Source: an uncultured delta proteobacterium
GTDB taxonomy: Bacteria; Desulfobacterota; Desulfobaccia; Desulfobaccales; 0-14-0-80-60-11
DNA: 64,000 nucleotides
Reading direction: 5' to 3'
Assembly: GCA_963812015.1 (NCBI GenBank)
Contig: CAWETI010000003.1
Location: forward strand, 1,152,001-1,216,000
Positions 35,692 through 58,350 of this stretch are shown one piece after another. The number at the start of each line of letters is the position of its first letter. The stretch's first letter is position 1. Both the position numbers and the translations under genes were made by a program. The notes under the pieces were generated by a model, which saw only the letters and a program-made list of their open reading frames with translations, was not told where the DNA came from and made no database searches.

Positions 35692-36235
35692 ATGAACAAG
35701 GATGTTGCCTTTGCCACCGACCTCGTCCAAATAGAACCCTGGCCGATTACGAGGCACGCGCTGGTAATTGCCGAGGTGGGGATCAATCATAATGGCGATG
35801 TCAAAATTGCCAAGCAGTTAATTGACCTGGCCAAATAAGCCGGCTGTGATGCGGTCAAATTCCAAAAAAGGACTATCGACATCGTTTACACCAAGGAATT
35901 TCTGGATTCTCCAAGGGAGAGTCCCTGGGGGGCGACGCAGCGGCAACAGAAGGAAGGCCTTGAATTCGGCAAGGTTGAATTCGATGAAGATGAAATTGAT
36001 GCATACTGTCGAGCGGTCGGCATCGATTGGTTTGCCTCGGCCCGGGATGTCCCCAGCCAGCTTTTTCTCCGCCAATATAAGCTCAAATATAACAAGATTG
36101 CCTCGCCGATGGTCACCCACCTGGATCTCTTGAGGGCAGTGACGGAAGAGGGTACACTCACCTTCATCTCCACGGGGATGAGCACCTATGACGAGATTGA
36201 CGTCGCGGTGAAACTTTCAGAAGGCACGACTGCGC
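35692..36235 (+). pseudogene. NeuB-family synthase pseudogene
   Basis: IAEVGINHNGD..AK*AGCDAVKFQKR..ISTGMS; in-frame TAA 35836-35838, frameshift near 36211, then truncated. Confidence 0.85.
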
Positions 36236-36447
36236 CGGACGCGAACGTATATTGCGCTTGATCAACCTCTCTATGCAAGGGTTCGACGCAGCCGTAAAAG
36301 AATATTTGTCCGAGCATACTGTAACAGATGAATTTTATAGTAGTAAAAAATGGTGAAATGCATGAGGGTTGTCATTTCTGGCGTGTTTGTCCGTTAAAAC
36401 CCACGAAGTGATGTGTATCTATCTTCATTAGTATCCGGGGGCAATGA

Positions 36448-37668
36448 ATGACCGACATTACAAACCCTATCAAATATTTAGGCAATGAACTCAAGTATAT
36501 AAAAAAAGTTTTGGAGGGTGAATCGTGGTCAGCAACAGGTGGCAGCTGGACAATAGCTTTAGAGCGTGCCTTTGCTAAAAAGATCGGCACGAAGTATGCG
36601 GTTGCCTTCAATTCAGGCACGTCTACGCTCCATGCGGCCCTTGAAGCAGTCGGCGTTGGGGCAGGTGATGAAGTCATATCGCCGGCAATAACGGTCATCA
36701 TGGATACCACTGCTACTATGCACGCCAATGCTGTTCCAGTATTCGCTGATGTCAATCCGAAAACTTTTACCATGGATCCTGAGGATTTGGCCCGAAAAAT
36801 CACTCCAAAGACCAAAGCGATTATAACCGTCGCCATTTACGGCCTATCACCCGATATGGACCCCATCATGGAGATTGCCAAGCAGTACCATATACCAGTC
36901 ATCGAGGACAACGCCCAAGCCGTACTGAGTTATTACAAGGGACGCATGCTCGGAACCATTGGCGATGTGGCAAGTTTCAGCTTTGAGAATACGAAACACA
37001 TCTCCTGTGGCGAAGGCGGTATGATTGTTACCGACAAAGAGGCCTACGCTGAAATGGTGCGTAAGATAGGCGGACACGGTTTCAAGAACCTAAAAGCCGA
37101 CGAGGGCCGTATCAGGCTAAACCAAGATGTATTCCAGAACCCTCACTACAAGCGCCATGATGTGCTGGGCTGGAATTATCGGCTTTCCGAGTTCAACGCA
37201 GCCATCGCCTTGGCGCAGCTTGAGCGCGTTGAGGAGTTAGTCGATCTGCGCATAAAATCGGCCAACCTTTTCATCGATGCTATGAAGACCTGTGATTACC
37301 TGGTTCCCCAAGAGATTCCCGATGGATACGTGAACTCCTACTATACCCTCGGCGTTGTTTACGAAGGTCAGGACAGTATCGGGGTATCCTGGGAAGAATT
37401 TAGGAAGGCCTATATCGAAGCAGGAGGAGACGGCATTTACGGTGGCTGGAGCGTGCCCTATCTCGAACCAATGATGGTAACGCGCCAATTTGCGAAGCGG
37501 TGCCCTTGCATATACGAGAATGTCAGCTATCCCCGGGGCTTGTGCCCCGTGGCTGAGAGAATTCAGCCGAAGATCATGCAGTTCAAGACGAACTACCGCG
37601 ATGTGGAGCTTGCCGAGAGGAAGGCTGATATTCTGAGGAAGGTCATCAAGAGATTCGCGGCGCGGTAA
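36448..37668 (+). CDS. DegT/DnrJ/EryC1/StrS PLP aminotransferase
   Basis: NSGTSTLH, IEDNAQA, SFENTKHISCGEGG, GWNYRL. Confidence 0.93.
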   Translation: MTDITNPIKYLGNELKYIKKVLEGESWSATGGSWTIALERAFAKKIGTKYAVAFNSGTSTLHAALEAVGVGAGDEVISPAITVIMDTTATMHANAVPVFADVNPKTFTMDPEDLARKITPKTKAIITVAIYGLSPDMDPIMEIAKQYHIPVIEDNAQAVLSYYKGRMLGTIGDVASFSFENTKHISCGEGGMIVTDKEAYAEMVRKIGGHGFKNLKADEGRIRLNQDVFQNPHYKRHDVLGWNYRLSEFNAAIALAQLERVEELVDLRIKSANLFIDAMKTCDYLVPQEIPDGYVNSYYTLGVVYEGQDSIGVSWEEFRKAYIEAGGDGIYGGWSVPYLEPMMVTRQFAKRCPCIYENVSYPRGLCPVAERIQPKIMQFKTNYRDVELAERKADILRKVIKRFAAR

Positions 37669-37690
37669 TGAATAGTAGAGGGAGGTGGTT

Positions 37691-38752
37691 GTGTTCGATA
37701 TCGGTTTTTTCATGAGCTGTAATGAGCTGAAGAAGAAGCTCGCGCGAGGAGAAATAAAGGATAGGCAGTACATCATTGCCAGTCTCGACGAATTCCGAAG
37801 CAAGAAACCTGTTGTGTACAATATTGAGACGACCAATGCCTGCAACATGAAGTGTAAGATGTGTCCTCGTACGACGATGATGACGCGCAAGGTTGCAACG
37901 ATGGACAGCGTACTTTTCAGAGATATTGTAGACCAGATCGAACCCCATTCCCCTGAGCTTTGGAGCGAGTGGGAGTCATTCGTCCAGCAGGAATATGGCA
38001 TCCCGAAAAGCGCCATGAGCGAGAACCATTTTTTTCTCTACATTATCCCCCGGGTCATACAACTTCACGGCTATGGTGATCCGCTCCTCGATAAAGACAT
38101 GGCCGAGTACGTAGGCCTCCTGACGAGCCGTGGAATACCATCTTACTTCAGTTGTAATCCGGCTAATATCAACGTCGAAAAGACAACCGAGATATTCAAA
38201 AACGGTCTCGACTATATTAAATATTCCATTGAGAGTGTCGAGGACGAAAGCCATAAGCAGATAAGGGGCGCGGCATCTAACTTCACCGAAAGCTATAGGA
38301 AGATCGTACAACTTCTAGAAATCAAGAAAAAGATGAACTACAAGACTACAATAATCATTACAATGATAGATCTTAATCGAAAGACACAAAAAGAAGAGTT
38401 TATGTTGTTGAGTAAGGCTTTCGAGGGCCTCGATGTATATATCTACCTTAAGAGTGAGGACCAGCAGTGGTACCGGCAGGATTTCCACGGCACGAAATCT
38501 ATCCACTGGTCCGAGTTCTGCAAGCATCCCTGGATGTCCATGACAATTAAGTCCAACGGTGAAGCAGCCATGTGCATGGAGGACTTCGACAACGAGATAA
38601 TCCTGGGTGACGCCCGAAAGGAAACACTCTATAACATATGGAACGGCGATAAGTACAAGCGTTTCAGGCTCGACCATATTAATCTGACCAAGGCGATCAA
38701 GTGCAGTGAACGGTGTGACATGAAAATGGTTGGAGATTTCCTGCCGCGCTAA
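37691..38752 (+). CDS. Radical SAM protein with SPASM/Twitch domain (paralogue 1)
   Basis: CNMKCKMC, LHGYGDPLLD, CKHPW..NGE..C..D, CSERC; GTG after GGAGG. Confidence 0.9.
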   Translation: MFDIGFFMSCNELKKKLARGEIKDRQYIIASLDEFRSKKPVVYNIETTNACNMKCKMCPRTTMMTRKVATMDSVLFRDIVDQIEPHSPELWSEWESFVQQEYGIPKSAMSENHFFLYIIPRVIQLHGYGDPLLDKDMAEYVGLLTSRGIPSYFSCNPANINVEKTTEIFKNGLDYIKYSIESVEDESHKQIRGAASNFTESYRKIVQLLEIKKKMNYKTTIIITMIDLNRKTQKEEFMLLSKAFEGLDVYIYLKSEDQQWYRQDFHGTKSIHWSEFCKHPWMSMTIKSNGEAAMCMEDFDNEIILGDARKETLYNIWNGDKYKRFRLDHINLTKAIKCSERCDMKMVGDFLPR

Positions 38753-38783
38753 AGGGCAAAATCTTTTTCGGAAGGAGTTTTGA

Positions 38784-39656
38784 ATGAAAACCATCAAGAT
38801 CGATGGCCAGCTCGTTGGTGAAAATCAGCCAATTTACATGATCGCCGAAATAGGCCTCAACCATAATGGTGATATCCAGATAGCAAAAAAGCTCATCGAT
38901 GCGGTCTTCGCAACGAACTGGAACTGCGCCAAATTTCAGAAGCGTACACCTTCGATATGTGTTCCCGAAAGTCAGAAGAACCTGATGCGAGATACGCCCT
39001 GGGGAAGAATAACTTACCTCGAATACCGATACAAGGTGGAATTCGAGAAGGAGCATTATGACTATATAGACAGATACTGTAAGGAAAAACCCATCGCCTG
39101 GACGGCGTCCGTCTGGGATTTGAAGAGTTTGGAATTCATTATGGGTTATGACGTGCCCTTCATCAAGATACCATCAGCCAAACTGACGGAACATGCGTGT
39201 CTTATAGAGGCTTCAAAAACTGGTAAACCCATCGTTTTATCAACCGGCATGAGCACCGTCCCGGAGATCGATACGGCCGTTGATCTGCTCGAAAAACATG
39301 CCGGGGGAGGCTACGTGTTGATGCACACCAATTCCGTTTATCCCGCGCCGCCTGAGGAGCTAAACTTGCGGGTCATAAACTTCCTAAAGGAGCGGTACGG
39401 CTGCGTCGTCGGTTACAGCGGCCATGAGGAAGACGTGGAGCCCTCGGTAATCGCAGCTTCGCTTGGAGCAAGCCTGATTGAAAGGCACGTGACGCTCGAT
39501 CACCACATGTGGGGCTCCGACCATTTCGCAAGCCTCGAAGTGCATGGCATGAGCCTGCTGCTTAAGAGGATAAAGAATATCAATGTTATCCTTGGCGACG
39601 GCGTCAAGAAGCTCACGGAAAAAGAAAAAGAAGTCAGAAAAAAACTTAAGGGATAG
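38784..39656 (+). CDS. NeuB-family nonulosonate synthase, short form without SAF domain
   Basis: IAEIGLNHNGD, KFQKR, LSTGMS, MHTNSVYP, GYSGHE, IERHVTLD. Confidence 0.92.
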   Translation: MKTIKIDGQLVGENQPIYMIAEIGLNHNGDIQIAKKLIDAVFATNWNCAKFQKRTPSICVPESQKNLMRDTPWGRITYLEYRYKVEFEKEHYDYIDRYCKEKPIAWTASVWDLKSLEFIMGYDVPFIKIPSAKLTEHACLIEASKTGKPIVLSTGMSTVPEIDTAVDLLEKHAGGGYVLMHTNSVYPAPPEELNLRVINFLKERYGCVVGYSGHEEDVEPSVIAASLGASLIERHVTLDHHMWGSDHFASLEVHGMSLLLKRIKNINVILGDGVKKLTEKEKEVRKKLKG

Positions 39657-39663
39657 TAATCCT

Positions 39664-40425
39664 ATGAAAAGCGCCATTTTTATAACTGTCAGGTCCGATT
39701 CGAGCCGACTACCCCAAAAGGCTCTTCTCCCTATACTTGGCAAACCCACGATAGAAATGGTTATATTGCGAGCGAAGCTCGTCAGGAATGCCGATACCGT
39801 CATCGTCTGCACCACAGAAAGATCTATAGACGATGGAATAGTAAAGATAGCCTCTCGTTGCGGTGTCCAGCATTTCCGAGGTAGCCTTGAAGACAAGCTG
39901 GATCGTTGGCTTGGTGCAACGAGGCAATTCAACATCGACTTTTTCGTTACATTGGATGGAGACGACTTGCTCTGCGATCCCGAACTGATGGAGGCAGGAA
40001 TTGAGCAACTCAAGACAACGGACGTAGATTTCCTAGAGGCCCCTGAAGGTCTCATCTGTGGTTCTTTTACCTATGGCATCCGGTCATCGGCGCTTGAAAA
40101 GGTCTGTACCATAAAAGGCACCAGCGATACGGAGATGATGTGGGTCTATTTTAAAGATACCCGCCTGTTCAATGTAGCGACGCTCGCCGTGCAGGACCCC
40201 ATCTTTTTCGACCCTGATATCCGCCTGACTCTCGATTATGAGGAGGATTTAGCATTTTTCCAAGCCATTTTCCAACATTACCAATGCATCAATAACGATA
40301 CCCCTTTGAGAGTCATCGTGCCATTCCTGAAAAAACATCCCGAAATTGTGCAGTTTAACGCTTTCAGGCGCCAAGATTGGACAACGAATCAAAAATTAAA
40401 AGCGAAACTCATTTTGAAAGATTGA
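39664..40425 (+). CDS. Cytidylyltransferase-family protein (SpsF-like)
   Basis: VRSDSSRLPQK, FRGSLED, LDGDD, IRLTLDYEEDL. Confidence 0.88.
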   Translation: MKSAIFITVRSDSSRLPQKALLPILGKPTIEMVILRAKLVRNADTVIVCTTERSIDDGIVKIASRCGVQHFRGSLEDKLDRWLGATRQFNIDFFVTLDGDDLLCDPELMEAGIEQLKTTDVDFLEAPEGLICGSFTYGIRSSALEKVCTIKGTSDTEMMWVYFKDTRLFNVATLAVQDPIFFDPDIRLTLDYEEDLAFFQAIFQHYQCINNDTPLRVIVPFLKKHPEIVQFNAFRRQDWTTNQKLKAKLILKD

Positions 40426-40569
40426 GTAACGTTTTAGAAATTCTACAATTGCATAAATAATGAGCACCTATCATAAACGTTTTTTTGGAAAACTCAAGCT
40501 ATGGTGGCATAGTATGAGCAAAATCTTGTTTGTTTATCCTTACAAAGAAGGATATCCTATTATGCCATG

Positions 40570-41301
40570 AAGCCGGCGGGGTTCCGGTGCTTTGGGATAT
40601 CCAAAGCACCGCGGTGGCTGAATGGGCCCGGGAGATTGCGACGCAATATGGGGTGGATTGCCGGGGCATGGCCGTTGACATCACCTCCCCCGAGGCGGTC
40701 AAAAGCGGTTTTGACCAGATGTTGTCCCGGTTTAACCGGGCCGACATTCTGATCAACAATGCGGCTAATGACCCAAAAGTCACCACAACCGCCGATCTTG
40801 CCTGGAGTCGCCTGGAGAACTTCTCCCTGGACCGCTTGCCTGCAAGATATGGCGGTGGGCTTAACGGGGGCTTTTCTGTGCAGCCAGACGGTGGGTTCCT
40901 CCATGGCCAGGTAGGGCGGTGGAGTCATCTTGAATGTCGCCTCTGATCTTGGGGTGATTGCCCCGGATCAACGCCTCTATCGTGAGGAAGGGGTGGCGGC
41001 GGATCGGCAACCGGTCAAACCGGTGACCTATTCGGTGATCAAGCACGGTTTAATCGGCCTGACCAAGTATCTGGCCACCTATTGGGCCGAGAACAACGTC
41101 CGGATGAACTCCCTTTCCCCCTGGGACATTCATACTAATCAGCCTGAAGCTTTCGTCAAGGAACTAACCGGCCTCATCCCTCTGGGCCGCATGGCTTCTT
41201 GCGATGATTACAGGGCGGCGGCACTTTTTCTGGTCTCAGACGCCTCCTCTTATATTACCGAGGCGAATTTGATCGTGGATGGCGGCAGGACTTGTTGGTA
41301 G
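40570..41301 (+). pseudogene. PtmA-like SDR pseudogene
   Basis: DILINNAA, NVASDLG, YSVIKHG, DGGRTCW; N-terminal Rossmann motif absent, frameshift near 40839, in-frame TAG 40911-40913. Confidence 0.8.
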
Positions 41302-41309
41302 GTATCTAA

Positions 41310-42818
41310 TTGAGCAATTACCGTACGTTCATCAAGAATAATTTAATTGTTCTATCTGGACATTTGCTGATTTACGCCCAGGGCGTTATTCTAATGCCTA
41401 TTATCATAAAAACTATAGGAATAAAAGTTTATGGTGGTTATAGTATCTTGATTACTAGTGTCGGCTTTCTGATGGCCATTGCTTCTTTCGGAGTTGGCTT
41501 TCGACGAAATAGATTTCTTCCCTCAGCTCAGGACGCACAAGAGCGTCGAGATCTATTTTATCCGCCATTTTATATTAATTTAGCATGTCTCATGCTATTA
41601 TCATTAGGATTAATCATTTCGTACCCAATTTTGGATAGATTATTCTTTAAAGGAGATTTATTATTTTTAATATGGCTTGTCGTTCCATATTATTTATTTA
41701 ATTCACTCTATGGGCAAACCACAGGCTATTTTAGATATACTCATAGGATAAATTATTTTAATTATTCTACATTAGCCTATGCTTGTCTTAATATCACTAT
41801 GATTTTATTATTAAGTTCCTTAGCCTATAAATTGACACTAAACGTTCTATTCATTATTCAAATTTTTTCATCCATCTTAGTAGCACTCCCGTTGACCATC
41901 AAAATGATTCAAGAGATCGGTCTCAGATTTGCCATACCCAATATACAAGATCTATTCGATGATATTAAATTGGGTTTCCCTTTGGTCTTAGCTTATTTTG
42001 TTGATTTCATTCTTAATTCCAGTGATAAGTTTGTGATTACCGCCTATATATCGATAACTGCGGTGGGTTACTATAATGCAGCCTACGCATTGGGTTCTTT
42101 TATAATTGTAATCCCCACAATCTCAGGTGTGGTTTTGCCACCGCTTATCTCTAAGGCAGTTGATACGGGCAACGAAGTCGAAGCCCGCACCATGATCAAT
42201 TATACGGTAAAAGGGTTCTTACTGGTGGGAATTCCATTTGTAGTGGGAAGCGCGGTAATGAGTAGGCCATTATTAATGTTATTAACAAATGCTGAAGTCG
42301 CTAATAAAGCTTTTTTTATAACTCCAATAGTATCTTTAGGGATCATTTTTTATGGCCTATGTGTCATCCTGTCAAACGTACTGCTTGTAAGAATGAAAAC
42401 AGCGATAATATTTAAAATACATATTGTCTCGGCAATATTAAATATTAGTCTAAATTTATTAATAATTTACTTTATAAGAAACATATTAGTTGCAGCTATA
42501 ACAACATGTATAAGTTATCTCATATCATTTGTTATTATGAAATATGTGGTAGATAATGACTGGTTCATTGATTATGATCTTAAAGCAATTATGAAATCTA
42601 TTGTGGCCTCTTTATGCATGGGGACTCTCTTATTTTATATATCCTCATGCCTCGGAACTGGCACTCTTCCAATATCTTATGTTATGGGTGAAGTAATTGT
42701 TGGGATGATAATATATTGCCTGGCTATTTTGCTTTTTAGGACCTTTTCTTCCAAAGAGTTAATTTACCTGAAAAAACTTGTGGTTAACCTGGATTATGCC
42801 AGAGAAAAAGGTGGATAA
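41310..42818 (+). CDS. Wzx-family flippase, AT-rich, C-terminus altered by IS insertion
   Basis: Polytopic, SDKFVI, VGYYNAAY; last codons are supplied by the IS left end. Confidence 0.85.
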   Translation: MSNYRTFIKNNLIVLSGHLLIYAQGVILMPIIIKTIGIKVYGGYSILITSVGFLMAIASFGVGFRRNRFLPSAQDAQERRDLFYPPFYINLACLMLLSLGLIISYPILDRLFFKGDLLFLIWLVVPYYLFNSLYGQTTGYFRYTHRINYFNYSTLAYACLNITMILLLSSLAYKLTLNVLFIIQIFSSILVALPLTIKMIQEIGLRFAIPNIQDLFDDIKLGFPLVLAYFVDFILNSSDKFVITAYISITAVGYYNAAYALGSFIIVIPTISGVVLPPLISKAVDTGNEVEARTMINYTVKGFLLVGIPFVVGSAVMSRPLLMLLTNAEVANKAFFITPIVSLGIIFYGLCVILSNVLLVRMKTAIIFKIHIVSAILNISLNLLIIYFIRNILVAAITTCISYLISFVIMKYVVDNDWFIDYDLKAIMKSIVASLCMGTLLFYISSCLGTGTLPISYVMGEVIVGMIIYCLAILLFRTFSSKELIYLKKLVVNLDYAREKGG

Positions 42819-44409
42819 TAGTATAAGTATATGATATAAGGAAGATATGTTAGTAAATCGGGTGTCTAAAAATGCTCGATAGTGGTGGAAGCAGGAAAGA
42901 GGTGATTCCGCCGGATTTTAACCGAGCCATCAGGATAGATTGCTATGGCGCCAAGATCACCTCAGACGGTGGTTTTCTCCTGATGGGAGAGATAGATGAC
43001 CATTTCAAAATCATCGCCCCCATGGGAGATTGCTTGGAGGACCTAAGGTAACCTGCTCATACGAAAAATTCATTAGTCCAAATGATTCGTCAAAGGGTCT
43101 ACCTCATTGCCACCTGCTATGAAGATTTGTAACGATGCCGATTTTCTTCGTACAGACCCTGCCCTTAGGCTGGCTCCTGGCAAGGATCATCAGGCTGGGG
43201 TCGGCCAGCCCTTGCTGTCCATGCTGGGAGAATAACATCCTGGGGAACGAGGCTTGGCTGCAGGCCTTTGAGGATGCCCTGACCCGTTCCACGGGTACCC
43301 CGTTAAAGAAAAAGAACAAAAAGCGGCTGATTAGCGGCCTGGATTCCACTGAGGACCCGGCCCAAGGCAAGCAGGATTGGGTTGCCTTCAACGGCCATTT
43401 TGCCAAGAACTGGTTCCATCCGCTTTTTGGCTCTATCAGCGAGCGCGATTGTCTGAGGGCAATGCTGAGACCGGGGAACGTCCATTCCGCCGACGGCACT
43501 CTTCCACTTCACTACCTTGGTGGACCGTTACCGTCTCTGGTTTCAGCTCTTTTGGCTGCGTAGCGATGCTGCCTTTGCCAACCCGGAAACCTACGAGTAT
43601 TGCGAAGAACACCGTATGACGTATTTCATTCGGTTGCCGTCAAATAAAAACCTGGATAAACTGGTGGCGCCTCATTTCGGTAGTCCGGTCAGCCGACCGC
43701 CCCAGAGCGTATTCAGGTCAAGATCGTTGAGCTCCACTACTAGGCCAAGAGTTGGAGCCGGCCTCGGCGGGTAGTGGCCAAGATCGAGTGGCATCGGTGC
43801 GGGCTTTTCCCCAGGATCGGCTTTGTGATCACCAACTCCAGGCTACAAGGTGACCAAGATCTATAACGGCCGGGCCGAGATAGAAAACCGGATCAAGGAA
43901 GGGAAGAACAGCTTGCGGTGGGGCAAAACCAGTTGCCAAAGGTTCGAGCCCAACCAGGCGAGGCTACAGATGGGGGTTCTGGCCTACAAACTTCTGCATA
44001 TGATCCGGCAGTTCTATGTTTGGGGTGAAGAATTGAAACGGTCCATGGAGTGTCTAATCAAGCGATTAATCAAAGTGGGCGCCAGGGTTTCTTATCTTGC
44101 CCGGAGATGGTATGTGCATATAGCCTCTGCCTTTCCTCTGGCTTTCGACTACCGATCAGTACTGGCCTAGGGTTCTTAAGGTCCACTGCATTGAGGTATC
44201 CGGGTTCTAAGGGAGGGTATGCCCCAAAAATTCTGTAAAAATTACAAGGTTTGACTTATTGGTTGACAAATTAATGGAGATTTGTGCGATCAGCGTTGTC
44301 GTTTGACAATTTGAGTACACAATAGGAAACTTCTCGGGGTTAAGCTCGGGAGGAGAGTTTCCAAAAACCATTTTTTGACCGCGTGCCCGAAGTTGCCGCA
44401 TAATCTCGG
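42788..44409 (+). mobile_element. IS1380-family insertion sequence with degenerate transposase
   Basis: Ends CCTGGATTATGC and GCATAATCTCGG (10/12 inverted match); GTTAA direct repeat on both sides; fragments ITSDGG, DPALRLA, LDSTED, LRPGNVHSA, YNGRAEIENRIKEGK. Confidence 0.88.
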
Positions 44410-44429
44410 GTTAAAGGGGATACATAATT

Positions 44430-46343
44430 TTGGGAAGCGATAAGACCGTTCTGCTGGTGTGCCGTAGCATCAGCGAAATTTGCCTGCTTAAGGGGTTCCA
44501 GCCGCAACCTGACTGCCGTTATATTGTGGGCTCGGATGATTTAAGAGTGCATCTGGAGATTGGAAAATATTCTTGGGTAGCAGAGGTCTGTTATTTAGAA
44601 AAAATGGAATCTTTATTCGCGGTGGCGGCTGACGTGATTAAATATCTTGAATTGATCAATCAGTGGCTGGCCTCCCTCGGAAATAATCCTGAAGGAGTTC
44701 CCGAGGAACTGCTCTTCTGGCTTCGAGTTTGTGAAGGAGGTGTGACCACCCAACGGATACAAGATTTGCTGCTATTGATCCGCTCTTACGAATATCTGAT
44801 AGATACCTTTAATATTAGCTCTGTTATCATTTTGAGCCATCCTCAAAAAGAGTGGGAAGATGATGTATTAACCAAGGTAGGGCAAAGTAAGGGAGCGGAG
44901 GTTCGAATCATTGGACACCTCAGCCTCAGTATTTTGAAGGGAAAATTGCTCTCAATGATGAAATTACTTGCCAGAGAACCTTATTATATTTTGTCTATTC
45001 TGCGTGACAAGTTTTGGAGGGGCGTGAGATTTCATAAACCTCAAATTTCTGGTAAAGAAATAGTTATACAAATGTGCATTCCCCACGATAAATTTGTGGA
45101 ACATACTATCCTCTCAATGAAAGCGTTAAAAAACCAGGGTTATGATCCGGTGGCATTGCTTTGGAGGGCATCGAAGGCAGCGGTCAAATTCAAGCAGGAA
45201 GGACTTTGGGTTGAAAAGCTGGAAACTTTTGTCCCGATGACATGCATCTATGATGCCCCTTGGCGGGTATGGTTAACTTGGCGCCAGGCCAGGCTCCGGC
45301 GCCATGAGTTTTTGGCACATTCGGGGTTGCAATACCGCAACATCCCCCTGGGTCCCTTGTTATGGCCCTCCGTAGTCTCCTTTTTCTGGGAAGAATTGCC
45401 CCAGAGATACAGGCTCCGGCAAGCAGCCAAGCAATATTTCACCAGCCATTCCCCCCTAGCAATACGACTATGGGGCGGAGGAACCCTGGCAGAAGGGCGT
45501 ATTGTCTCAATAAGTTTAAATGATAAGCAACGGCCCCTGGTTTTTTTATGGTTGGGGGCTCTTATGGAAGATCCTTATTATGAGGTTCCGCCGACTGATC
45601 TTTTTTTAGTTGACGGGGATTACCAAGTTAACTACCTTAATGAACGTGGCATACCTGCCCAGCGCATAGTAACGGTGGGTTTATCCAGGTATGATTATCT
45701 TCCTACTTTCAGAAAAGAGTACAGTCCAAGTCAATCAAAAACATATCTGAACATTCCACAAGTTTATCAATATTATATTCTTTTTGATCCAAACTATACG
45801 CTAAGAGGTTATCTCACGCTACAAGAACAGTCCCTGGTCACTGAAGCGCTGTTAAGGTTTACCCGGGAACAATCGTCGCTCGCCTTGATGATCAAACCTC
45901 ACCCAGCCCATAGTCCCGGTTGGCTGGAGGAACTGGTTAAAGACTTTTCCTTGCCTAATGTGTATGTTATCGAAAAGGAAATGTTGCCTTACCACGCCTT
46001 AAATGCTGCAGATTTAGTTATCACCAAAGTTTCGACCCTGGCGCTGGATGCCATGTTGTTTGGAAAACCCGTAATTTCAATTCTCCTGGATGGCGAAGAG
46101 CGGTTTAGGGTATATGGTGACGCGGTGGAGCGGGCGAATAGTCTTGAGGCCTTAAATAAGATACTTACCATGATGATCAGTGATACCGGTAAGAGAGCGG
46201 ATTGGGTGAAAAATCAGCGTAAAAACCAGGAGTATTTTTTGAAGAATTATTTCGGAAATATTATTTTTGATTCGGCCAAGATGGGAGCTGAAGCTTTGGA
46301 TAAATTTATCAGTAATAATCAAGAGTTATCCAGCAAAATCTGA
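44430..46343 (+). CDS. Putative surface-carbohydrate glycosyltransferase (GT-B, HP motif)
   Basis: C-terminal VTVGLSRYD, IKPHP, ADLVITKVSTLALDAMLFGKPV. Confidence 0.7.
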   Translation: MGSDKTVLLVCRSISEICLLKGFQPQPDCRYIVGSDDLRVHLEIGKYSWVAEVCYLEKMESLFAVAADVIKYLELINQWLASLGNNPEGVPEELLFWLRVCEGGVTTQRIQDLLLLIRSYEYLIDTFNISSVIILSHPQKEWEDDVLTKVGQSKGAEVRIIGHLSLSILKGKLLSMMKLLAREPYYILSILRDKFWRGVRFHKPQISGKEIVIQMCIPHDKFVEHTILSMKALKNQGYDPVALLWRASKAAVKFKQEGLWVEKLETFVPMTCIYDAPWRVWLTWRQARLRRHEFLAHSGLQYRNIPLGPLLWPSVVSFFWEELPQRYRLRQAAKQYFTSHSPLAIRLWGGGTLAEGRIVSISLNDKQRPLVFLWLGALMEDPYYEVPPTDLFLVDGDYQVNYLNERGIPAQRIVTVGLSRYDYLPTFRKEYSPSQSKTYLNIPQVYQYYILFDPNYTLRGYLTLQEQSLVTEALLRFTREQSSLALMIKPHPAHSPGWLEELVKDFSLPNVYVIEKEMLPYHALNAADLVITKVSTLALDAMLFGKPVISILLDGEERFRVYGDAVERANSLEALNKILTMMISDTGKRADWVKNQRKNQEYFLKNYFGNIIFDSAKMGAEALDKFISNNQELSSKI

Positions 46344-46376
46344 TGGCTATTGGGCAAATTAGAATATATGATATAA

Positions 46377-46407
46377 AATAAGATTGTAATAAGATTGTAA
46401 TAAGATT
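46377..46407. repeat. 11-bp tandem repeat
   Basis: AATAAGATTGT x2 plus AATAAGATT. Confidence 0.7.
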
Positions 46408-46523
46408 AATTCCCCCTGTGTGAGTTGCTGGAGAGGCGACGGTTACGAGTTCAAATTGGCGATTTACCGGGTACTAAAAAGCTTTCACCTCGATTTTAAA
46501 GGTTTCTGGTTCTGTTTCTCATG

Positions 46524-46705
46524 TTTGGCCACGCCCAGGGCCGCCAAGTGGGAACGATTCGCTTGTACATAGGCCTTGGCACCGGTAAGTTCCTTGGCCT
46601 GGGATTGGGCTAACGTTGGCAGGACCCGTCGGGCAAGTAACCCGGGGTGGCCAAAGACCTGCACGATAAACCCGGAGCCAGCGTCCTGAACCGCGTGGCT
46701 TTTTT
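46524..46705 (+). ncRNA. Candidate structured leader RNA with terminator-like hairpin (unclassified)
   Basis: TTTGGCCAC/GTGGCCAAA closing stem, internal hairpins, then AGCCA..TGGCT followed by a T-run. Confidence 0.4.
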
Positions 46706-46779
46706 GTAGTCATAAAACCTCTTCTTCGGGGTCTTGCGGTAAAATATGGTGGTATTCTGTTATTTCTGAGGCTAGATTT

Positions 46780-47874
46780 ATGTATGACACCAATTTCTTC
46801 ATGAGTACGTTTAAGCTGAAAAAGGAAATCATCAGCCGGAAGGCAGCTTCCCGGGATTATGAGGAAATCTACCAGATTTTTAATCAGAACCTTACCCCTT
46901 CCCCCTTCGTTTTTAATATTGAGACCACCAACTTTTGCAACATGACGTGCATTATGTGTCAGCGAACTAATGAGCTAGAGCGCCCGCTGATGCACATGGA
47001 CATGCAGACCTTTAAGAATATCATAGAGCAATTAAAGCCTCGCACTTCTGATGATTACCAACGGTGGCAGAAATTCGTGCGGAAAAATTTGTTCGACAGC
47101 AGTGGCCCTTCGGAGAACAACTTTTATTATCAAGTTATTTCTAGGTCGATAACTTTGCACGGGTTCGGAGAGCCGCTGCTGGACCCCATGCTGCCAGAAC
47201 GGGTGGCCCTCATGACGCAGAGGCAAATTCCTTCTTATTTTTCCTGCAATCCCAATAACATCCGCCTCGATTTCATTAAGGAACTATTTCAGGCCAAAAT
47301 CGGCTATATAAAGTTCGCGATGGATAGTCTGGATGATGCCCGGGCTCGGGAAATTCGCGGCAGGAAGGCCGACTTTACCAGAGCCTATGAGCTGATCGAG
47401 GAGGTTCTAGAGCTTAAAAAAGCTGTGCGAGCCGAAACGGTCATTGTTATGACTATGCTAGATTTTATTGGCGCAAACGGTCTCGATTCGGAGCCGAAGC
47501 GGTTCATGGATTTGTGGCAGGGAAAAGACGTCTATGCCTATGTAAAGAGTCTGGATAATAGATGGCTTCTTAAGCGTAAAGGGGAACATGAGAAAGCCAA
47601 AGGGAAAGATAAAAGCCATTACGGCAAGCAATATTGTGAGTTCCCCTGGACCTCCATAACCATTCTCGCCGACGGCTCGGTGGTGCCCTGTACCCAGGAC
47701 ATCAATGGCCTCTGGACCTTTGGTAATGTGAATGAAAAACCTTTAGCCAATATTTGGCGAAGCCCCAAGTACCAGGAGTTCAGGCGAATGCATGTCATGG
47801 GAAATTTTTTCCCCGACTTCATGTGCCATTCCAAATGTGACCTGAACCTGGCTTGCTACTTTCTGGGAAAATGA
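46780..47874 (+). CDS. Radical SAM protein with SPASM/Twitch domain (paralogue 2)
   Basis: CNMTCIMC, LHGFGEPLLD, IPSYFSCNP, CEFPW..DGSVVPCTQD, CHSKC. Confidence 0.9.
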   Translation: MYDTNFFMSTFKLKKEIISRKAASRDYEEIYQIFNQNLTPSPFVFNIETTNFCNMTCIMCQRTNELERPLMHMDMQTFKNIIEQLKPRTSDDYQRWQKFVRKNLFDSSGPSENNFYYQVISRSITLHGFGEPLLDPMLPERVALMTQRQIPSYFSCNPNNIRLDFIKELFQAKIGYIKFAMDSLDDARAREIRGRKADFTRAYELIEEVLELKKAVRAETVIVMTMLDFIGANGLDSEPKRFMDLWQGKDVYAYVKSLDNRWLLKRKGEHEKAKGKDKSHYGKQYCEFPWTSITILADGSVVPCTQDINGLWTFGNVNEKPLANIWRSPKYQEFRRMHVMGNFFPDFMCHSKCDLNLACYFLGK

Positions 47875-48677
47875 TGGACCTTAAAGACACCTACTTCAGT
47901 CTGGAAGGAAAGGTCGTGGCATTGACCGGAGGCAGCGGCCTCATCGCCATGAGGGCAGTCAGACATCTCCCCCTTTACGGGGCCAGTCTAGTACTGGGAG
48001 TGCGAAACGTGGGCCGTTTTGAAGAGAAGCTCCGGGAGATTCACTATCCCCAAGAAACCTTCCGGCCCTCATGCTTTCATATGGACCTGGGAGAGCAAGC
48101 CACGGTGAAGAGTTTTTTCCACCAAGTAAAGGAGGAGTTCCAGCACCTGGACGTCCTTATCAACAACGCCTTTCCCAGGACCGAGGACTGGCTGGTCAAG
48201 TTCGAAGAGGTGGAGGCCGAGTCCTTATACAAGAACCTGTGTGATCATGCCGGCGGATACTTTTTATGCTGTCAGGAAGCGGCAAAAATTATGATGGAAC
48301 AAAAAACCGGGGTCATCCTGAACCTGGGATCAATCTACGGCGAAGTGGGGCCGCATTTTTCCATTTACGAGGGTACCAAGATGACCAGTCCTGCGGCCTA
48401 TTCCCTTATTAAGGGCGGCGTCCATGCCTTCACCCGTTATCTGGCCGCTTATCTCGGGCCCTACGGCATCCGGGTCAACTGCCTGAGCCCCGGTGGCATA
48501 AAAGATGAAAGCCAACAACCACCGACGTTTATTAAAAATTACATCCAGCAGACTCCCTTGGGCCGAATGGCCGACCCCGAAGACATGATTGGTCCCCTGA
48601 TCTTTCTCATTTCGGAAGCCTCCAGATACGTTACCGGACAGGTATTGTTTGCTGATGGGGGATGGACCTGCTGGTAA
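47871..48677 (+). CDS. PtmA-like SDR oxidoreductase
   Basis: TGGSGLI, LINNA, SIYG, YSLIKGG, DGGWT; ATGA overlap with radical SAM stop. Confidence 0.9.
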   Translation: MMDLKDTYFSLEGKVVALTGGSGLIAMRAVRHLPLYGASLVLGVRNVGRFEEKLREIHYPQETFRPSCFHMDLGEQATVKSFFHQVKEEFQHLDVLINNAFPRTEDWLVKFEEVEAESLYKNLCDHAGGYFLCCQEAAKIMMEQKTGVILNLGSIYGEVGPHFSIYEGTKMTSPAAYSLIKGGVHAFTRYLAAYLGPYGIRVNCLSPGGIKDESQQPPTFIKNYIQQTPLGRMADPEDMIGPLIFLISEASRYVTGQVLFADGGWTCW

Positions 48678-48722
48678 CCCGTCTCATTATCCTCTTGTTT
48701 AATACCCAGGCACGATAGAGAG

Positions 48723-49766
48723 ATGTACATGGGAAATCATATCGTCATTGCTGGCCGTTTAGTGGGAAATGAATACCCTCCCCTGGTTATTGCCGAAATT
48801 GGCATAAATCATGAGGGAAGTTTAGACAAAGCCGTCCGGATGGTAGAAGACGCCCATAGGGCCGGGTGCGAATGTGTCAAACTCCAGTGTCACATCTTGG
48901 ACGAAGAGATGATCGAAAACGATGTGGTTCCGGCCAATGCCAGTGAATCCATCTGGAATATGATGAACCGGTGTTCTCTTTCCGAAAAAGAAGAGGAAGG
49001 GCTCAAAGAGCTAGTGGAAACCAAGGGGATGATTTTTCTCAGCACCCCGTTTTCACGTGGCGCGGCTGATAGACTAAATAAAATGGGGGTTTCGGCTTTC
49101 AAGATCGGTTCCGGGGAGTGCAACAACTATCCTTTGATTCAACACATCGCGGATTTCGGCAAGCCGATAATTCTCAGCACGGGAATGAACGACCTCAGAT
49201 CCATTGCCGTGGCGGTGGATATTTTAGAGAGAAGTCGAATCTCTTACGCCCTGCTGCATTGCACTTCCTTATATCCGACGCCTTATGAAAAGGTCCGCTT
49301 AGGGGGCATGGTTGAACTGGCGCAGCGCTTCCCTCACGCAGTTATCGGCTTGAGTGACCACTCTTTGGGGAACTATACTTGTTTTGCTGCCGTGGCGATG
49401 GGCGCTGCCATAGTGGAAAAACATTTCACCTCCGAGCGGAACTGGCCAGGCCCCGACATTCCCATTTCCATTACCCCCGGGGAATTGGCGGATTTGGTGC
49501 GAGGCACTGCGGCCATTCACCGGGCTTTGGGAGGCAGCAAGGAAATTTTGGCGGAGGAGGGGCCCACTATCAAGTTTGCCTATGCATCGGTGGTCACTAT
49601 CAAGCCCGTCAAACAAGGGGAGCTGTTAACCGTGAATAATATTTGGGTAAAGCGACCCGGGACCGGAGAAATTTTAGCCCCGGATTTTTGTAAGGTGCTA
49701 GGACGCCGAGCCAGGTGCGACCTGCCGGTGAATATCCAAATAAAATACGAAGACGTGGACCTATGA
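48723..49766 (+). CDS. neuB: N-acylneuraminate (nonulosonate) synthase with SAF domain
   Basis: IAEIGINHEG, KIGSGECNNYPL, LHCTSLYP, GLSDHS, EKHFT, WVKRPGTG. Confidence 0.92.
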   Translation: MYMGNHIVIAGRLVGNEYPPLVIAEIGINHEGSLDKAVRMVEDAHRAGCECVKLQCHILDEEMIENDVVPANASESIWNMMNRCSLSEKEEEGLKELVETKGMIFLSTPFSRGAADRLNKMGVSAFKIGSGECNNYPLIQHIADFGKPIILSTGMNDLRSIAVAVDILERSRISYALLHCTSLYPTPYEKVRLGGMVELAQRFPHAVIGLSDHSLGNYTCFAAVAMGAAIVEKHFTSERNWPGPDIPISITPGELADLVRGTAAIHRALGGSKEILAEEGPTIKFAYASVVTIKPVKQGELLTVNNIWVKRPGTGEILAPDFCKVLGRRARCDLPVNIQIKYEDVDL

Positions 49767-50914
49767 AGCAGAAAACGATATGCGTTTATACCTGTAATCG
49801 CTCGGAATACAGCAGGCTAAAATCGGTCATGAAGGCTATTGAGGCTCACCTCGGCCTGGATCTGAAGATTGTGGTCGGTGGGTCACAGTTACTGGAACGA
49901 TACGGCATGACCGTAATTGATATCGAAAATGACGGGTTTGTCATCAATGAGAAAATTCAGAACGTGGTGGAAGGCTCAACGCCGGAGGCCATGGCCAAGT
50001 CCGCCGGTTTAGCCATCATAGAGCTTACCACCTGTTTTTCTCGGATCCAACCGGATGTTCTCCTGGTAGTCGGCGACCGGTATGACATGCTGCCCGCGGT
50101 GGTGGCAGCCTCTTTCTTGAATATTCCCATTGCACATATTCAGGGTGGGGAAAAAACCGGTTCCATAGATGAATCCATCCGGCATGTGGTGACCAAATTC
50201 GCGCATCTGCATTTCCCCGCAACCGAAAAAAGTAAAGACCTCATCATTCAAATGGACGAGAAGCCCCACAGGGTCTTTGTAACTGGCTGCCCCTCCATTG
50301 ATAACATCCTGCAAATAGCTTCCATGGACCGAAAAGTGCTCTTTGAGACTCCACCCATTCCTTCTAAATTGGAGCTCAGGTCCCCGTCGGCGGATCAAGA
50401 TTATATCCTGTTGATCCAGCATCCGAATACTACCGAATATGACCAGTGTTACGACCAGATGATCGCCACGCTGACGGCCATCCATAAAATAAGGCTCCAG
50501 ACCTTGTTGATTTACCCCAATCTAGATGCCGGGTCGGATAGGATGGTGGCCGCGATTCGCAGGTTTATGTTGAAACAGGAATGTGATTACCTTTTCTGTT
50601 TTAAACATGTCCCCATGGACACCTTCATTAATCTTTTACGTTATGCTTCATGTATTGTTGGCAATTCCAGCAGTGGAATTAGAGAATCATGCTATTTCGG
50701 CACGCCTTGTGTAAATATTGGCAGCAGACAAAATAAACGGGAACATGGGAGCAACGTTATCAATACGGGCCATGATTCTGATGAGATCTACCGGGCCATT
50801 AAGAAGCAACTAGAAATCAAGAGGTACCCTGTTGAACACATCTATGGTGATGGCAATGCCGGACCCTTGATTGCTGATATTCTTTACCGGACCGATATAA
50901 ATATTCAAAAATGA
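49763..50914 (+). CDS. neuC: Hydrolysing NDP-N-acetylglucosamine 2-epimerase
   Basis: RSEY, GDRYD, AHIQGGE, DESIRH, GNSSSG, YGDG. Confidence 0.9.
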   Translation: MKQKTICVYTCNRSEYSRLKSVMKAIEAHLGLDLKIVVGGSQLLERYGMTVIDIENDGFVINEKIQNVVEGSTPEAMAKSAGLAIIELTTCFSRIQPDVLLVVGDRYDMLPAVVAASFLNIPIAHIQGGEKTGSIDESIRHVVTKFAHLHFPATEKSKDLIIQMDEKPHRVFVTGCPSIDNILQIASMDRKVLFETPPIPSKLELRSPSADQDYILLIQHPNTTEYDQCYDQMIATLTAIHKIRLQTLLIYPNLDAGSDRMVAAIRRFMLKQECDYLFCFKHVPMDTFINLLRYASCIVGNSSSGIRESCYFGTPCVNIGSRQNKREHGSNVINTGHDSDEIYRAIKKQLEIKRYPVEHIYGDGNAGPLIADILYRTDINIQK

Positions 50915-50929
50915 CCAATGAGGCCACGG

Positions 50930-51193: not shown

Positions 51194-51428
51194 TTTTGAT
51201 GATACCGTATTCTCTTATCTTCCCCTGGTCTATGCGAATGGATTCATCGCAAGAAATTTATTATTTACTATGATTGTTTTTTTACAGAAGCACCACAAAG
51301 AATGTTTTAGCCACACAGGGCGATGACCATGCCTTTGATGAAGTTGAGCTTAATCAGTTCCTTTACCTGGAGTCCCAGGCCCGCTATTATGCAAAAACGT
51401 CGAATGATTCTTTAAGTAATTGGAAACC

Positions 51429-58017: not shown

Positions 58018-58350
58018 GTGCAGTTTTTATTAAAATATGATGATTTTGCCCAAATGAGAACAATAAGCCCAGTCAATGTTTACCCAGGAAGTCCATTATA
58101 TTACTATGCCATTGAAAAAGGATTGCTTAAGGATTGTCAGGATTTCTATGAAAACAAGCACATTAACTCAGACTTGCTAACGGTTAATTTTACTGAATTG
58201 TCTGATCAGGAGTTTCATGAGGCTCTCCATCATGCAAATTCAAGGTTAATCGAGAACTATCATAAAGCTAAACTAAGTTATTATTTAAAGCAAACCGATA
58301 ACCTGTACTTTAACACTGACGCTAGCTTTCGAGGCTATAGGCAGTACTGA
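58018..58350 (+). pseudogene. C-terminal remnant of a radical SAM protein (B12-binding type likely)
   Basis: Begins mid-domain; PVNVYPGSPLYYYAIEKGLL resembles the PYPGT/SxLY motif; no CxxxCxxC upstream. Confidence 0.6.

What the first reader, a model, noticed from the sequence alone, without database searches (positions are those of the whole stretch)
36448..49766. Duplicated radical SAM + NeuB + SDR module: candidate uncharacterised nonulosonate tailoring pathway
Seen: two paralogous radical SAM/SPASM genes (37691, 46780) share the N-terminus (FD/YD..FFMS..LKK), SENHFF/SENNFY, LHG.G.PLLD and IPSYFSCNP. Each sits with a NeuB and a PtmA-like SDR. The first is directly after a DegT aminotransferase, with a cytidylyltransferase two genes downstream. 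Established: the canonical Neu/Leg/Pse pathways need no radical SAM enzyme; BtrN (Twitch radical SAM alcohol dehydrogenase) works with the DegT-family BtrR to replace OH with NH2; KdnAB aminate Kdo at C8 by oxidation and transamination. Inference: these enzymes oxidise a sugar or nonulosonate carbinol anaerobically, followed by transamination (copy 1, where the SDR has decayed) or SDR re-reduction/epimerisation (copy 2, where the SDR is intact and overlaps the radical SAM stop), giving an unusual amino- or epi-nonulosonate.
Basis: partly seen in the sequence, partly recalled or inferred. Interest (0 to 1): 0.8.

Follow-up and report, generated by a model that had tools for sequence, protein, structure and literature searches.

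The report
Radical enzyme remodels sialic-acid-like sugars
Two distantly related iron-sulfur radical enzymes sit in this bacterium's surface-sugar gene cluster, and their unstudied, widespread family sits beside a sialic-acid-type synthase plus either an aminotransferase or a reductase, so it likely makes a keto group on the sugar's tail (probably by removing water, possibly by simple oxidation), which would give amino or deoxy sugars not yet described.

Summary
Both genes are intact Twitch-type radical SAM enzymes (36% identical), but they are not a recent duplication: they lie on opposite sides of the deepest split in the family tree, and each cassette occurs alone in relatives. NeuB lies within 4 kb in 68 of 68 well-flanked homologous loci. 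The partner is an aminotransferase only (17), a reductase only (47), both (3) or neither (1), and it switches at least 14 times on the tree, so the enzyme likely makes a carbonyl. SDR2 matches the ElaC C8-ketoreductase residue register, which points to C8. In a same-genus genome and four viral contigs an SDR stands beside the aminotransferase with no radical enzyme. All three pairings exist (RS+DegT, SDR+DegT, RS+SDR), and 119 of 122 nearest NeuBs are types inferred to give 9-hydroxy sugars. The decayed SDR is probably not copy 1's lost partner. My paper searches found no description. This scan noted the family before on other DNA (e1-1582230, e1-3783239, e1-2970006, e1-4905234); the partner-swap evidence was not in those notes as shown to me.

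The parts
35692..36260 (+). Decayed SAF-less NeuB (in-frame stop at 35836-35838, 3' part lost)
   Evidence: sequence matched by an X1 contig with 0 differences
36448..37668 (+). DegT-family PLP aminotransferase of a clade ('DegT*') found with the radical SAM enzyme or with an SDR/Gfo
37691..38752 (+). Radical SAM/Twitch enzyme, copy 1: CxxxCxxC plus four C-terminal Cys in BtrN register, extra conserved Cys155
38784..39656 (+). NeuB1, SAF-less ulosonate synthase; relatives carry a KDN-9-phosphate-phosphatase-like HAD (best match, below cut-off)
39664..40425 (+). CMP-ulosonate cytidylyltransferase CT1
40530..41301 (+). Frameshifted SDR pseudogene of the PtmA/ElaC-like group; probably not a core part of module 1
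41310..42818 (+). Wzx-type flippase (GC 0.34)
42880..44170 (+). Decayed DDE_Tnp_1_4 insertion sequence between the two modules
44430..46343 (+). Putative glycosyltransferase (weak Glyphos_transf and BFO_1060-like matches); homologues sit beside both module types
46780..47874 (+). Radical SAM/Twitch enzyme, copy 2 (other deep clade)
47871..48677 (+). SDR2, intact; matches 8 of 9 tested ElaC positions in exact spacing; predicted 8-keto-ulosonate reductase
48723..49766 (+). NeuB2, SiaC-like Neu5Ac synthase with SAF domain
   Evidence: E 3.7e-118 to PDB 1xuu
49763..50914 (+). NeuC hydrolysing UDP-GlcNAc 2-epimerase, above TIGR03568 cut-off
51420..52604 (+). 394-aa protein with no Pfam or NCBIfam match, conserved in L081
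52592..56005 (+). WbuX amidotransferase (above cut-off), CT2, HisF-like and HisH-like genes: predicted acetamidino-forming set of module 2
   Evidence: same order in L081
56002..57896 (+). Class I methyltransferase and divergent NeuB3
58018..58350 (+). C-terminal remnant of a B12-binding radical SAM family that often accompanies this enzyme

Best explanation
Both genes encode Twitch-type radical SAM enzymes of a family that travels with NeuB, and each likely abstracts a hydrogen from the glycerol tail (probably C8) of a Kdn- or Neu5Ac-type sugar and probably eliminates the neighbouring hydroxyl as water, leaving a deoxy-ketone that the partner enzyme would then aminate or reduce. Shown: domain content, four auxiliary-cluster Cys, linkage to NeuB, and near mutual exclusion of aminotransferase and reductase partners. 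Inferred (about 0.8): the product is a carbonyl on the NeuB product. Inferred (about 0.6): the carbon is C8. Inferred (0.45 overall): the radical is resolved by dehydration. Module 1 (SAF-less NeuB, DegT*) would then give an 8-amino-8,9-dideoxy Kdn-like acid. Module 2 (NeuC, SiaC-like NeuB, ElaC-type SDR, WbuXYZ) would give a 9-deoxy neuraminic acid, probably 8-epi and 5-acetamidino. A regiochemical variant (H taken from C9, loss of the 8-OH, terminal aldehyde) is included in this figure. Whether the substrate is the free acid or its CMP form is open; 8 of 68 loci have a ThDP enzyme and no CMP transferase within 4 kb, which hints at the free acid.
For: NeuB within 4 kb in 68 of 68 loci with at least 4 kb on both flanks; aminotransferase only 17, reductase only 47, both 3, neither 1; the pattern holds after de-replication at 80% (15/27/3/1 of 46) and 70% (10/18/2/1 of 31). 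Two unrelated aminotransferase classes (DegT, class III) and two reductase classes (SDR, Gfo) alternate, with at least 14 changes on the tree and swaps between enzymes 77-86% identical. For C8: SDR2 carries ElaC's S145, Y147, V150, I156, Y157, P165, Y168 and K172 in exact spacing (residues from PMC13656337 passages, where ElaC is modelled with an 8-keto methyl ketone); a class III aminotransferase 51% identical to the RS-linked ones sits with a Gfo in a PseI/PseG locus without RS, and an 8-amino 9-deoxy nonulosonate is known (PMC3210612). For dehydration: (1) RS+DegT*, SDR+DegT* and RS+SDR all occur with one short SDR family at about 50-55% identity whose motif does not sort by partner; with unchanged SDR stereo-preference, RS+SDR is futile after oxidation but productive after dehydration. 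(2) 119 of 122 nearest NeuBs are SAF-less, CBS-NeuB-AP2 or SiaC-like types inferred to give a 9-OH sugar (counted), while NAD-dependent pairs serve the Leg/Pse routes. (3) 368 of 370 sequences keep a Cys at 155 or 158, a possible H donor. (4) The same alpha-hydroxyalkyl radical partitions between elimination and oxidation in DesII (PMC11434129 passages); BlsE is a 1,2-diol dehydratase (reference title) and AprD4 a diol dehydratase.
Against: No biochemistry and no sugar structure. BtrN, a dehydrogenase, is the nearest solved relative by sequence (profile E 5.6e-18) and BlsE, DesII and AprD4 give no sequence hit at E up to 1. An SDR sits exactly in the rSAM1 slot beside a 92% identical DegT in a same-genus genome, which is read most simply as like-for-like oxidase replacement. 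Closely related SDRs can switch stereo-preference (recalled: tropinone reductases). The phylogenetically independent test of partner exclusion has only 5 supported pairs and is not significant (p 0.125). Counting any DegT raises 'both' to 9 of 68. L088 has no partner and L014 is ambiguous. An ElaC-like SDR beside an aldehyde dehydrogenase (L174) suggests that this SDR group is not confined to C8. The substrate of SAF-less NeuBs is inferred from a below-cut-off HAD match. All 10 sequences lacking Cys155 were retrieved as close copy-2 homologues, where Cys158 is common anyway. The loci are the best 80 of 445 and 80 of 563 hits, and 35 of the 80 GTDB loci are Chloroflexota.
Confidence: 0.45

Rival explanations
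1. BtrN-like dehydrogenase: the radical at C8 (or another tail carbinol) is oxidised through the auxiliary cluster to a hydroxy-ketone, replacing an NAD-dependent ElaA/KdnB-type oxidase; DegT* or the class III enzyme gives an 8-amino-Kdn-type acid, and SDR or Gfo gives an 8-epimer of Kdn or Neu5Ac.
For: BtrN is the best PDB hit by sequence and by Foldseek, with the four auxiliary Cys and the His of the strand before the GGE-like motif in register. Of 10 DegT*-clade loci without this enzyme, 8 carry an SDR and/or Gfo, 1 another radical SAM/SPASM and 1 is truncated. The G411 swap is nested in a supported 8-row DegT clade whose other members all have RS. ElaA/ElaC and EpaA/EpaB show oxidation-reduction epimerisation at C8.
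Against: It needs opposite stereo-preference within one SDR family, and Gfo enzymes acting as epimer-forming reductases, to explain RS+SDR and RS+Gfo loci. It does not explain why the enzyme almost never accompanies Leg/Pse-type synthases. In 20 of 68 loci a Gfo+SDR pair is already present, which would make an oxidase redundant.
Confidence: 0.35
2. Direct radical epimerase (HygY/NeoN type, recalled) using Cys155 as H donor, with the partners acting independently.
For: Cys at 155 or 158 in 368 of 370 sequences; L088 has no partner.
Against: 17 of 68 loci have an aminotransferase and no detected NAD oxidoreductase within 4 kb, so the radical enzyme is the only candidate ketone source; the partners' mutual exclusion is left unexplained.
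Confidence: 0.08
3. The enzyme acts upstream, on the aldose, aldose phosphate or NDP-sugar that feeds NeuB, or at a ring carbon (C4, or C5 of Kdn, giving neuraminic acid with a free amine).
For: BtrN, DesII and BlsE act on ring carbinols; ThDP loci lack a CMP transferase; the two clades are only 36% identical and need not share regiochemistry.
Against: The family serves both the NeuC/SiaC route and the SAF-less route, which share the product tail but not the precursor; C5 is blocked in Neu5Ac; the partner SDR has the CMP-ulosonate loop of ElaC; no dehydratase or nucleotidyltransferase is a conserved neighbour.
Confidence: 0.12

Closest known systems
BtrN with BtrR/BtrS (butirosin; Twitch radical SAM dehydrogenase plus DegT aminotransferase)
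   Same: Radical SAM core plus Twitch domain, four auxiliary Cys in register, best PDB hit by sequence and Foldseek; DegT partner.
   Different: 16-20% structural identity; this family has an N-terminal helical extension of about 40 residues and a two-helix insert (about 85-121) with invariant Glu111; linked to NeuB; also pairs with reductases.
BlsE (with BlsH), AprD4 (with AprD3), DesII: radical SAM lyases making deoxy-ketones (the partner enzymes are recalled)
   Same: Radical at a sugar carbinol, then a ketone handed to an aminotransferase or reductase; DesII Z 17.9 and BlsE Z 15.6 in the fold search.
   Different: No sequence hit; fold scores tie with unrelated SPASM enzymes such as SuiB (Z 17.7); substrates are nucleoside or NDP-sugar rings in antibiotic pathways.
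ElaABC, EpaAB and Aci C8-epimerisation modules of Acinetobacter (PMC13656337, PMC12053666, PMC5595891)
   Same: A CMP transferase plus a ketone-forming enzyme plus an adh_short_C2 reductase next to NeuB; SDR2 has ElaC's residue register.
   Different: They use NAD(P) enzymes (Gfo or aldo-keto reductase) on 9-deoxy Leg/Pse; here a radical SAM enzyme holds that place and the synthases are Kdn/Neu5Ac types.
KdnAB (Kdo8N); the pathway is recalled, KdnA appears as PDB 5k8b
   Same: DegT-family amination of an ulosonate tail after carbonyl formation.
   Different: KdnB is an NAD-dependent alcohol dehydrogenase acting on Kdo; DegT1 scores no better with KdnA (171 bits) than with BtrR (170) or perosamine synthase (189).
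spiro-SPASM (TIGR04321) and N_Twi_rSAM (NF033640)
   Same: Weak matches to the SPASM/Twitch part.
   Different: Scores 39-44 bits against cut-offs of 250 and 170.

Membership tests
Radical SAM, Twitch subgroup | CxxxCxxC motif and Radical_SAM domain | tested here: met
   Pfam above cut-off in both copies; three Cys invariant in 370 of 370
Radical SAM, Twitch subgroup | Short SPASM-type domain with ligands for one auxiliary cluster | tested here: met
   C277, C295, C338, C342 conserved in at least 369 of 370 and aligned to BtrN's C-terminal Cys; no further C-terminal Cys set
Radical SAM, Twitch subgroup | Two [4Fe-4S] clusters bound and SAM cleaved | not testable with these tools
   needs reconstitution
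BtrN orthologues (2-deoxy-scyllo-inosamine dehydrogenase) | High full-length similarity and aminocyclitol gene context | tested here: not met
   16% identity in the Foldseek alignment, extra insert, NeuB context in 68 of 68
BtrN-like dehydrogenase activity | Two-electron oxidation of a carbinol | tested here: inconclusive
   SDR replacement supports it; three-way pairing argues against
BlsE/AprD4-type radical diol dehydratase | Sequence membership of a described dehydratase family | tested here: not met
   no PDB sequence hit at E up to 1; the AprD4 NCBIfam model was not among the hits at E up to 1e-8
BlsE/AprD4-type radical diol dehydratase | Loss of water from a vicinal diol | not testable with these tools
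   only indirect genomic support
ElaC-type CMP-8-keto-nonulosonate reductase (SDR2) | S145/Y147, long V150-P165 loop, Y168xxxK172 | tested here: met
   8 of 9 tested positions identical in register, M164 differs; best PDB hit 6UH2, the search model used for ElaC.
PtmA equivalog NF050062 / PRK09186 (SDR2) | Score above curated cut-off | tested here: not met
   148 against 350 and 219.6 against 255
Leg/Pse pathway | 4,6-dehydratase, C4 aminotransferase, acetyltransferase and LegI/PseI synthase in the module | tested here: not met
   no dehydratase or acetyltransferase in 36448-57896; NeuBs below the PseI cut-off; DegT1 below LegC and PseC cut-offs
Neu5Ac pathway (module 2) | Hydrolysing NeuC, SiaC-like NeuB, CMP synthetase | tested here: met
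   NeuB2 scores 356 against the TIGR03569 cut-off of 399.65, so slightly under that model
Kdn-9-phosphate pathway (module 1) | Sugar-phosphate synthase plus HAD phosphatase | tested here: inconclusive
   HAD within 4 kb in 48 of 68 loci, best match KDN-9-P phosphatase at 97.5 against 180; none in this cluster, but a CT-HAD fusion lies on G000 C2 926112-927284
spiro-SPASM TIGR04321 | Score above cut-off and N-terminal transferase domain | tested here: not met

The most novel reading that the evidence does not exclude
This family is a radical diol dehydratase that deoxygenates the finished sialic-acid skeleton. It would be a route to 9-deoxy (legionaminic/fusaminic-like) and 8-amino-8,9-dideoxy ulosonates that bypasses the nucleotide-sugar 4,6-dehydratase used by the Leg/Pse pathways, spread over many bacterial phyla, archaea and viruses, with interchangeable partners setting the final sugar.
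Probability: 0.4. Interest if true: 0.82.

Novelty: new variant of a known kind. Interest (0 to 1): 0.66.

Why it matters
The nonulosonate pathways I found described use polar enzymes only. A conserved radical SAM step (1532 and 384 clustered homologues at E up to 1e-20, overlapping sets) predicts a set of amino, deoxy or epi Kdn and Neu5Ac derivatives on environmental microbes and in viruses, and gives SAF-less NeuBs, whose products I found no report of, a testable pathway. The substrates are commercial and the readout is a mass shift (M-18 against M-2), so the question is directly testable. It would also add a non-antibiotic case for how Twitch enzymes choose between oxidation and elimination.

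Tried and rejected
Recent tandem duplication: rejected (none of 160 loci holds two family members within its flank, but flanks are at most 10 kb and often shorter). The ~290-aa neighbours as hidden reductases: they are class I methyltransferases. L014/L021 (92% identical) as a clean partner swap: dropped, because L014 has another DegT beside the radical gene. Residues of the radical enzyme that track partner type: none found, best column overlap 0.31. A motif separating oxidase-type from reductase-type short SDRs: does not sort. Fold search to separate dehydrogenase from dehydratase: uninformative, DesII, SuiB, BtrN and BlsE within Z 15.6-17.9. Short SDR search in 351 genomes of one phylum found only the seed and none in viral contigs; the representative search gave family size but no context. 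Plasmids hold only distant (23-26%) relatives. RNA contigs from two wetland metatranscriptomes cover pieces of both modules at about 88-96% identity; these are relatives and do not show transcription of this locus. The Atlas look-up gave no result, so protein-language-model neighbours are untested. The BtrN structure paper, the BlsE paper and a Twitch review could not be read, so active-site residue mapping rests on alignments only. Paper searches without a description of this family: (0 papers); subscription journals are mostly not covered, and no supplements were read.

Full report
Setting. The window is G000 C3 1152001-1216000. A DsrMKJOP-like operon and typA (named from their translations, by recall) at GC 0.59 precede a lower-GC polysaccharide cluster that starts near 35700. 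The cluster holds four NeuB-type sequences, one of them decayed.

Observation. Both radical SAM genes are intact, 36% identical, and carry Radical_SAM and SPASM domains. No NCBIfam model is met. All quoted motifs are present. In 370 aligned homologues the three core Cys and four C-terminal Cys are essentially invariant, along with E46, R60, E111, H126, Y152, S154, K177, K254, D257 and W260. The four C-terminal Cys align with BtrN's. The AlphaFold model (45-row alignment, pLDDT 92.5) has BtrN as top Foldseek hit (E 5.6e-12); by VIA-align DesII, SuiB, SkfB, BtrN and BlsE lie between Z 15.6 and 17.9, so the fold does not name the reaction.

Not a duplication. In a FastTree of 134 rows (loci with a partner gene and a protein of at least 320 aa, plus the two window copies; 28 of 160 loci left out) the copies lie on opposite sides of the midpoint-rooted deepest split. 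Module 1 in its six closest relatives is HAD, DegT*, RS, SAF-less NeuB and CT, often with a B12 radical SAM gene and without an SDR. Module 2 occurs alone, about 80-94% identical gene by gene, in L081. A decayed insertion sequence lies between the modules. The family was found in 3 of 400 other genomes of the phylum and 0 of 40 relatives, of which 17 have a NeuB. It is an optional, mobile accessory of NeuB clusters.

Neighbourhood. I fetched the best 80 of 445 GTDB hits and the best 80 of 563 metagenome hits. Neighbours were labelled by BLAST to window proteins and by Pfam scans of cluster representatives. Of 160 loci, 68 have at least 4 kb on both sides. All 68 have NeuB, 56 a CMP transferase and 48 a HAD. 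Aminotransferase only 17, SDR or Gfo only 47, both 3, neither 1. De-replicated at 80% and 70% identity the pattern persists; counting any DegT it becomes 17/41/9/1. The state changes at least 14 times on the tree (shuffled mean 36, so kin share partners), and only 5 supported independent pairs exist: about 4 in the expected direction, none against, p 0.125. The exclusion is therefore clear descriptively but not established phylogenetically. GTDB loci span about 16 named phyla including two archaeal ones, with 35 of 80 Chloroflexota; 13 of 31 viral loci hold close members at 46-61% identity.

What the partners say. An enzyme that pairs with either of two aminotransferase classes or either of two reductase classes most plausibly makes a carbonyl (inference). 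SDR2 matches ElaC's listed residues in exact spacing at 8 of 9 positions, and by my reading of the printed sequence also Q205, F209 and Y213 with a two-residue shift. ElaC is proposed to reduce CMP-8-keto-Leg5,7Ac2 after the Gfo enzyme ElaA oxidises C8 (PMC13656337, passages; structures and docking, with no enzyme assay in the passages seen). EpaAB and AciB/AciE likewise tie adh_short SDRs to C8 (PMC12053666 and PMC5595891, passages). A class III aminotransferase 51% identical to the RS-linked ones sits with a Gfo in a PseI/PseG locus lacking RS (L173), and an 8-amino nonulosonate is known from Flexibacter maritimus (PMC3210612, passages). These point to C8. Against: L174 and L175 pair an SDR of this group with an aldehyde dehydrogenase, which suggests action at C9.

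Which synthases. NeuB2 is a SiaC-like Neu5Ac synthase followed by NeuC. NeuB1 lacks the SAF domain; SAF-less NeuBs are an environmental group (PMC8208679, passages), and here they travel with a HAD whose best match is KDN-9-phosphate phosphatase, below cut-off. Counting from the NeuB tree (proteins under 250 aa left out), the NeuB nearest the radical gene is in the NeuB1-type clade in 107 loci, the CBS-NeuB-AP2 clade in 6, the SiaC clade in 6 and elsewhere in 3, one of which also has a SiaC-like gene. By contrast 7 of 20 control NeuB loci from relatives centre on a SAF-less gene. That these types give 9-hydroxy sugars is inference, firm for SiaC and weaker for the rest.

Gene replacement. Same-genus genome G411 has, at the same chromosomal site, DegT (92%), NeuB1 (91%) and CT1 (90%), but a short, low-GC SDR occupies the rSAM1 slot. 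That SDR is frameshifted, but so are typA and the nitrite-reductase-like gene in this assembly, so these are probably sequencing errors. Its DegT nests in a supported clade whose seven other members have RS. Four of five viral DegT* loci have intact DegT*, SDR and SAF-less NeuB with no family RS in the fetched flank. Searches of 400, 300, 200 and 250 genomes besides their centre genomes gave nine further DegT* loci: four with RS (three already in my set), three with SDR and/or Gfo, one with a different SPASM enzyme and one truncated. So DegT* needs a carbonyl-forming partner, and RS is one.

Oxidation or dehydration. Replacement by an SDR reads most simply as oxidation, as does kinship to BtrN, a two-cluster Twitch dehydrogenase (PMC10337720 and PMC13598754, passages). 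But the same short SDR family also appears as the sole partner of RS (L007, L029, L036, L038, L057, L191, L192, L194-L197), and its motif does not sort by partner. If it keeps one stereo-preference, RS plus SDR is a futile cycle after oxidation, whereas after dehydration all three pairings give a product, provided DegT* and the SDR tolerate presence or absence of the 9-OH. The same holds for Gfo, the only detected reductase in 18 of 68 loci (in the 8 ThDP loci it may instead reduce the branch ketone; PMC9306805, parts 1 and 2 of 3). Dehydration also explains the NeuB bias and why a radical enzyme is used where NAD enzymes suffice for oxidation. A Cys at 155 or 158 is kept in 368 of 370 sequences. 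DesII shows that one radical can go either way depending on geometry and leaving group (PMC11434129, passages). A stereo-switch in the SDR would rescue oxidation and has precedent (recalled). I weigh dehydration at 0.45, oxidation 0.35, another site 0.12 and direct epimerase 0.08.

Completeness in this genome. Module 1 lacks a local HAD, but a stand-alone CT-HAD fusion exists on C2. Module 2 has NeuC, NeuB2, SDR2, CT2 and WbuXYZ. SDR1 and the first NeuB are real lesions as far as run X1 shows, which may be the source sample.

Prior knowledge. Ten searches of the held library (listings and abstract starts) found no radical SAM enzyme in a nonulosonate pathway. The SugarBase preprint (passages and section 12 part 1) has no occurrence of 'radical SAM' and reports many unannotated nucleotide sugars. 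PMC9912281 (passages) lists known nonulosonates. BlsE's dehydratase activity is taken from a reference title in PMC10267522; BlsH, AprD3, HygY, NeoN, KdnB and BtrR roles are recalled. Earlier notes of this scan record the same family with a BtrN-like reading; I treated them as leads.

Verdict. A real, widespread, uncharacterised radical SAM tailoring step in Kdn/Neu5Ac-type pathways, here in two independently acquired versions. New variant of a known kind; interest 0.66.

Noticed in passing
L008, L017, L019, L022-L024, L033-L035, L043: The same radical enzyme sits with SAF-less NeuB, HAD, a ThDP enzyme and Gfo in CDP-sugar-type clusters with no CMP transferase nearby, suggesting an ulosonate used as donor for a long-branched sugar.
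   Followed up: partly
L188-L200, L242-L246 (viral contigs): Viruses carry NeuB-RS-SDR-CT and CT-DegT*-SDR-NeuB cassettes.
   Followed up: partly
window 58018-58350; full copy near G000 C3 1223052-1224452: A ~462-aa B12-binding radical SAM family accompanies the module in 19 of 160 loci (10 of 68 within 4 kb); function unknown.
   Followed up: partly
L174 and L175 (G427, G426): NeuB, ElaC-like SDR, aldehyde dehydrogenase and CT in a row: a possible route to a C9-carboxylated ulosonate.
   Followed up: no
L173 (G419): PseI and PseG with a class III aminotransferase, Gfo and methyltransferase: candidate 8-amino-pseudaminic acid pathway.
   Followed up: partly
L168 10042-10857 and L232 8015-9019: Other radical SAM/SPASM proteins, outside this family, sit beside an aminotransferase and NeuB, possibly a convergent pairing.
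   Followed up: no
window 56838-57896: NeuB3 is on a very long branch (22-23% to the other NeuBs), conserved only in L081; its role is unexplained.
   Followed up: no
window 50914-51420: Broken reading frames that look by eye like a NeuB remnant; BLASTX against my reference set found nothing at 1e-4.
   Followed up: partly
L007, L016, L021, L027, L029-L031, L037, L039, L088, L095, L160: A recurring ~290-aa class I methyltransferase beside the module, a candidate O-methyltransferase for the ulosonate.
   Followed up: partly
G000 C2 926112-927284: Stand-alone cytidylyltransferase-HAD fusion far from any NeuB.
   Followed up: no
L167 7892-8536: An APS kinase lies where the window has the SDR pseudogene, hinting at sulfation in that strain.
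   Followed up: no
window 60739 onwards, minus strand, to about 70400 in genome coordinates beyond the window: An oppositely oriented sugar operon (DegT, GT2, epimerases, methyltransferases) abuts the cluster.
   Followed up: no
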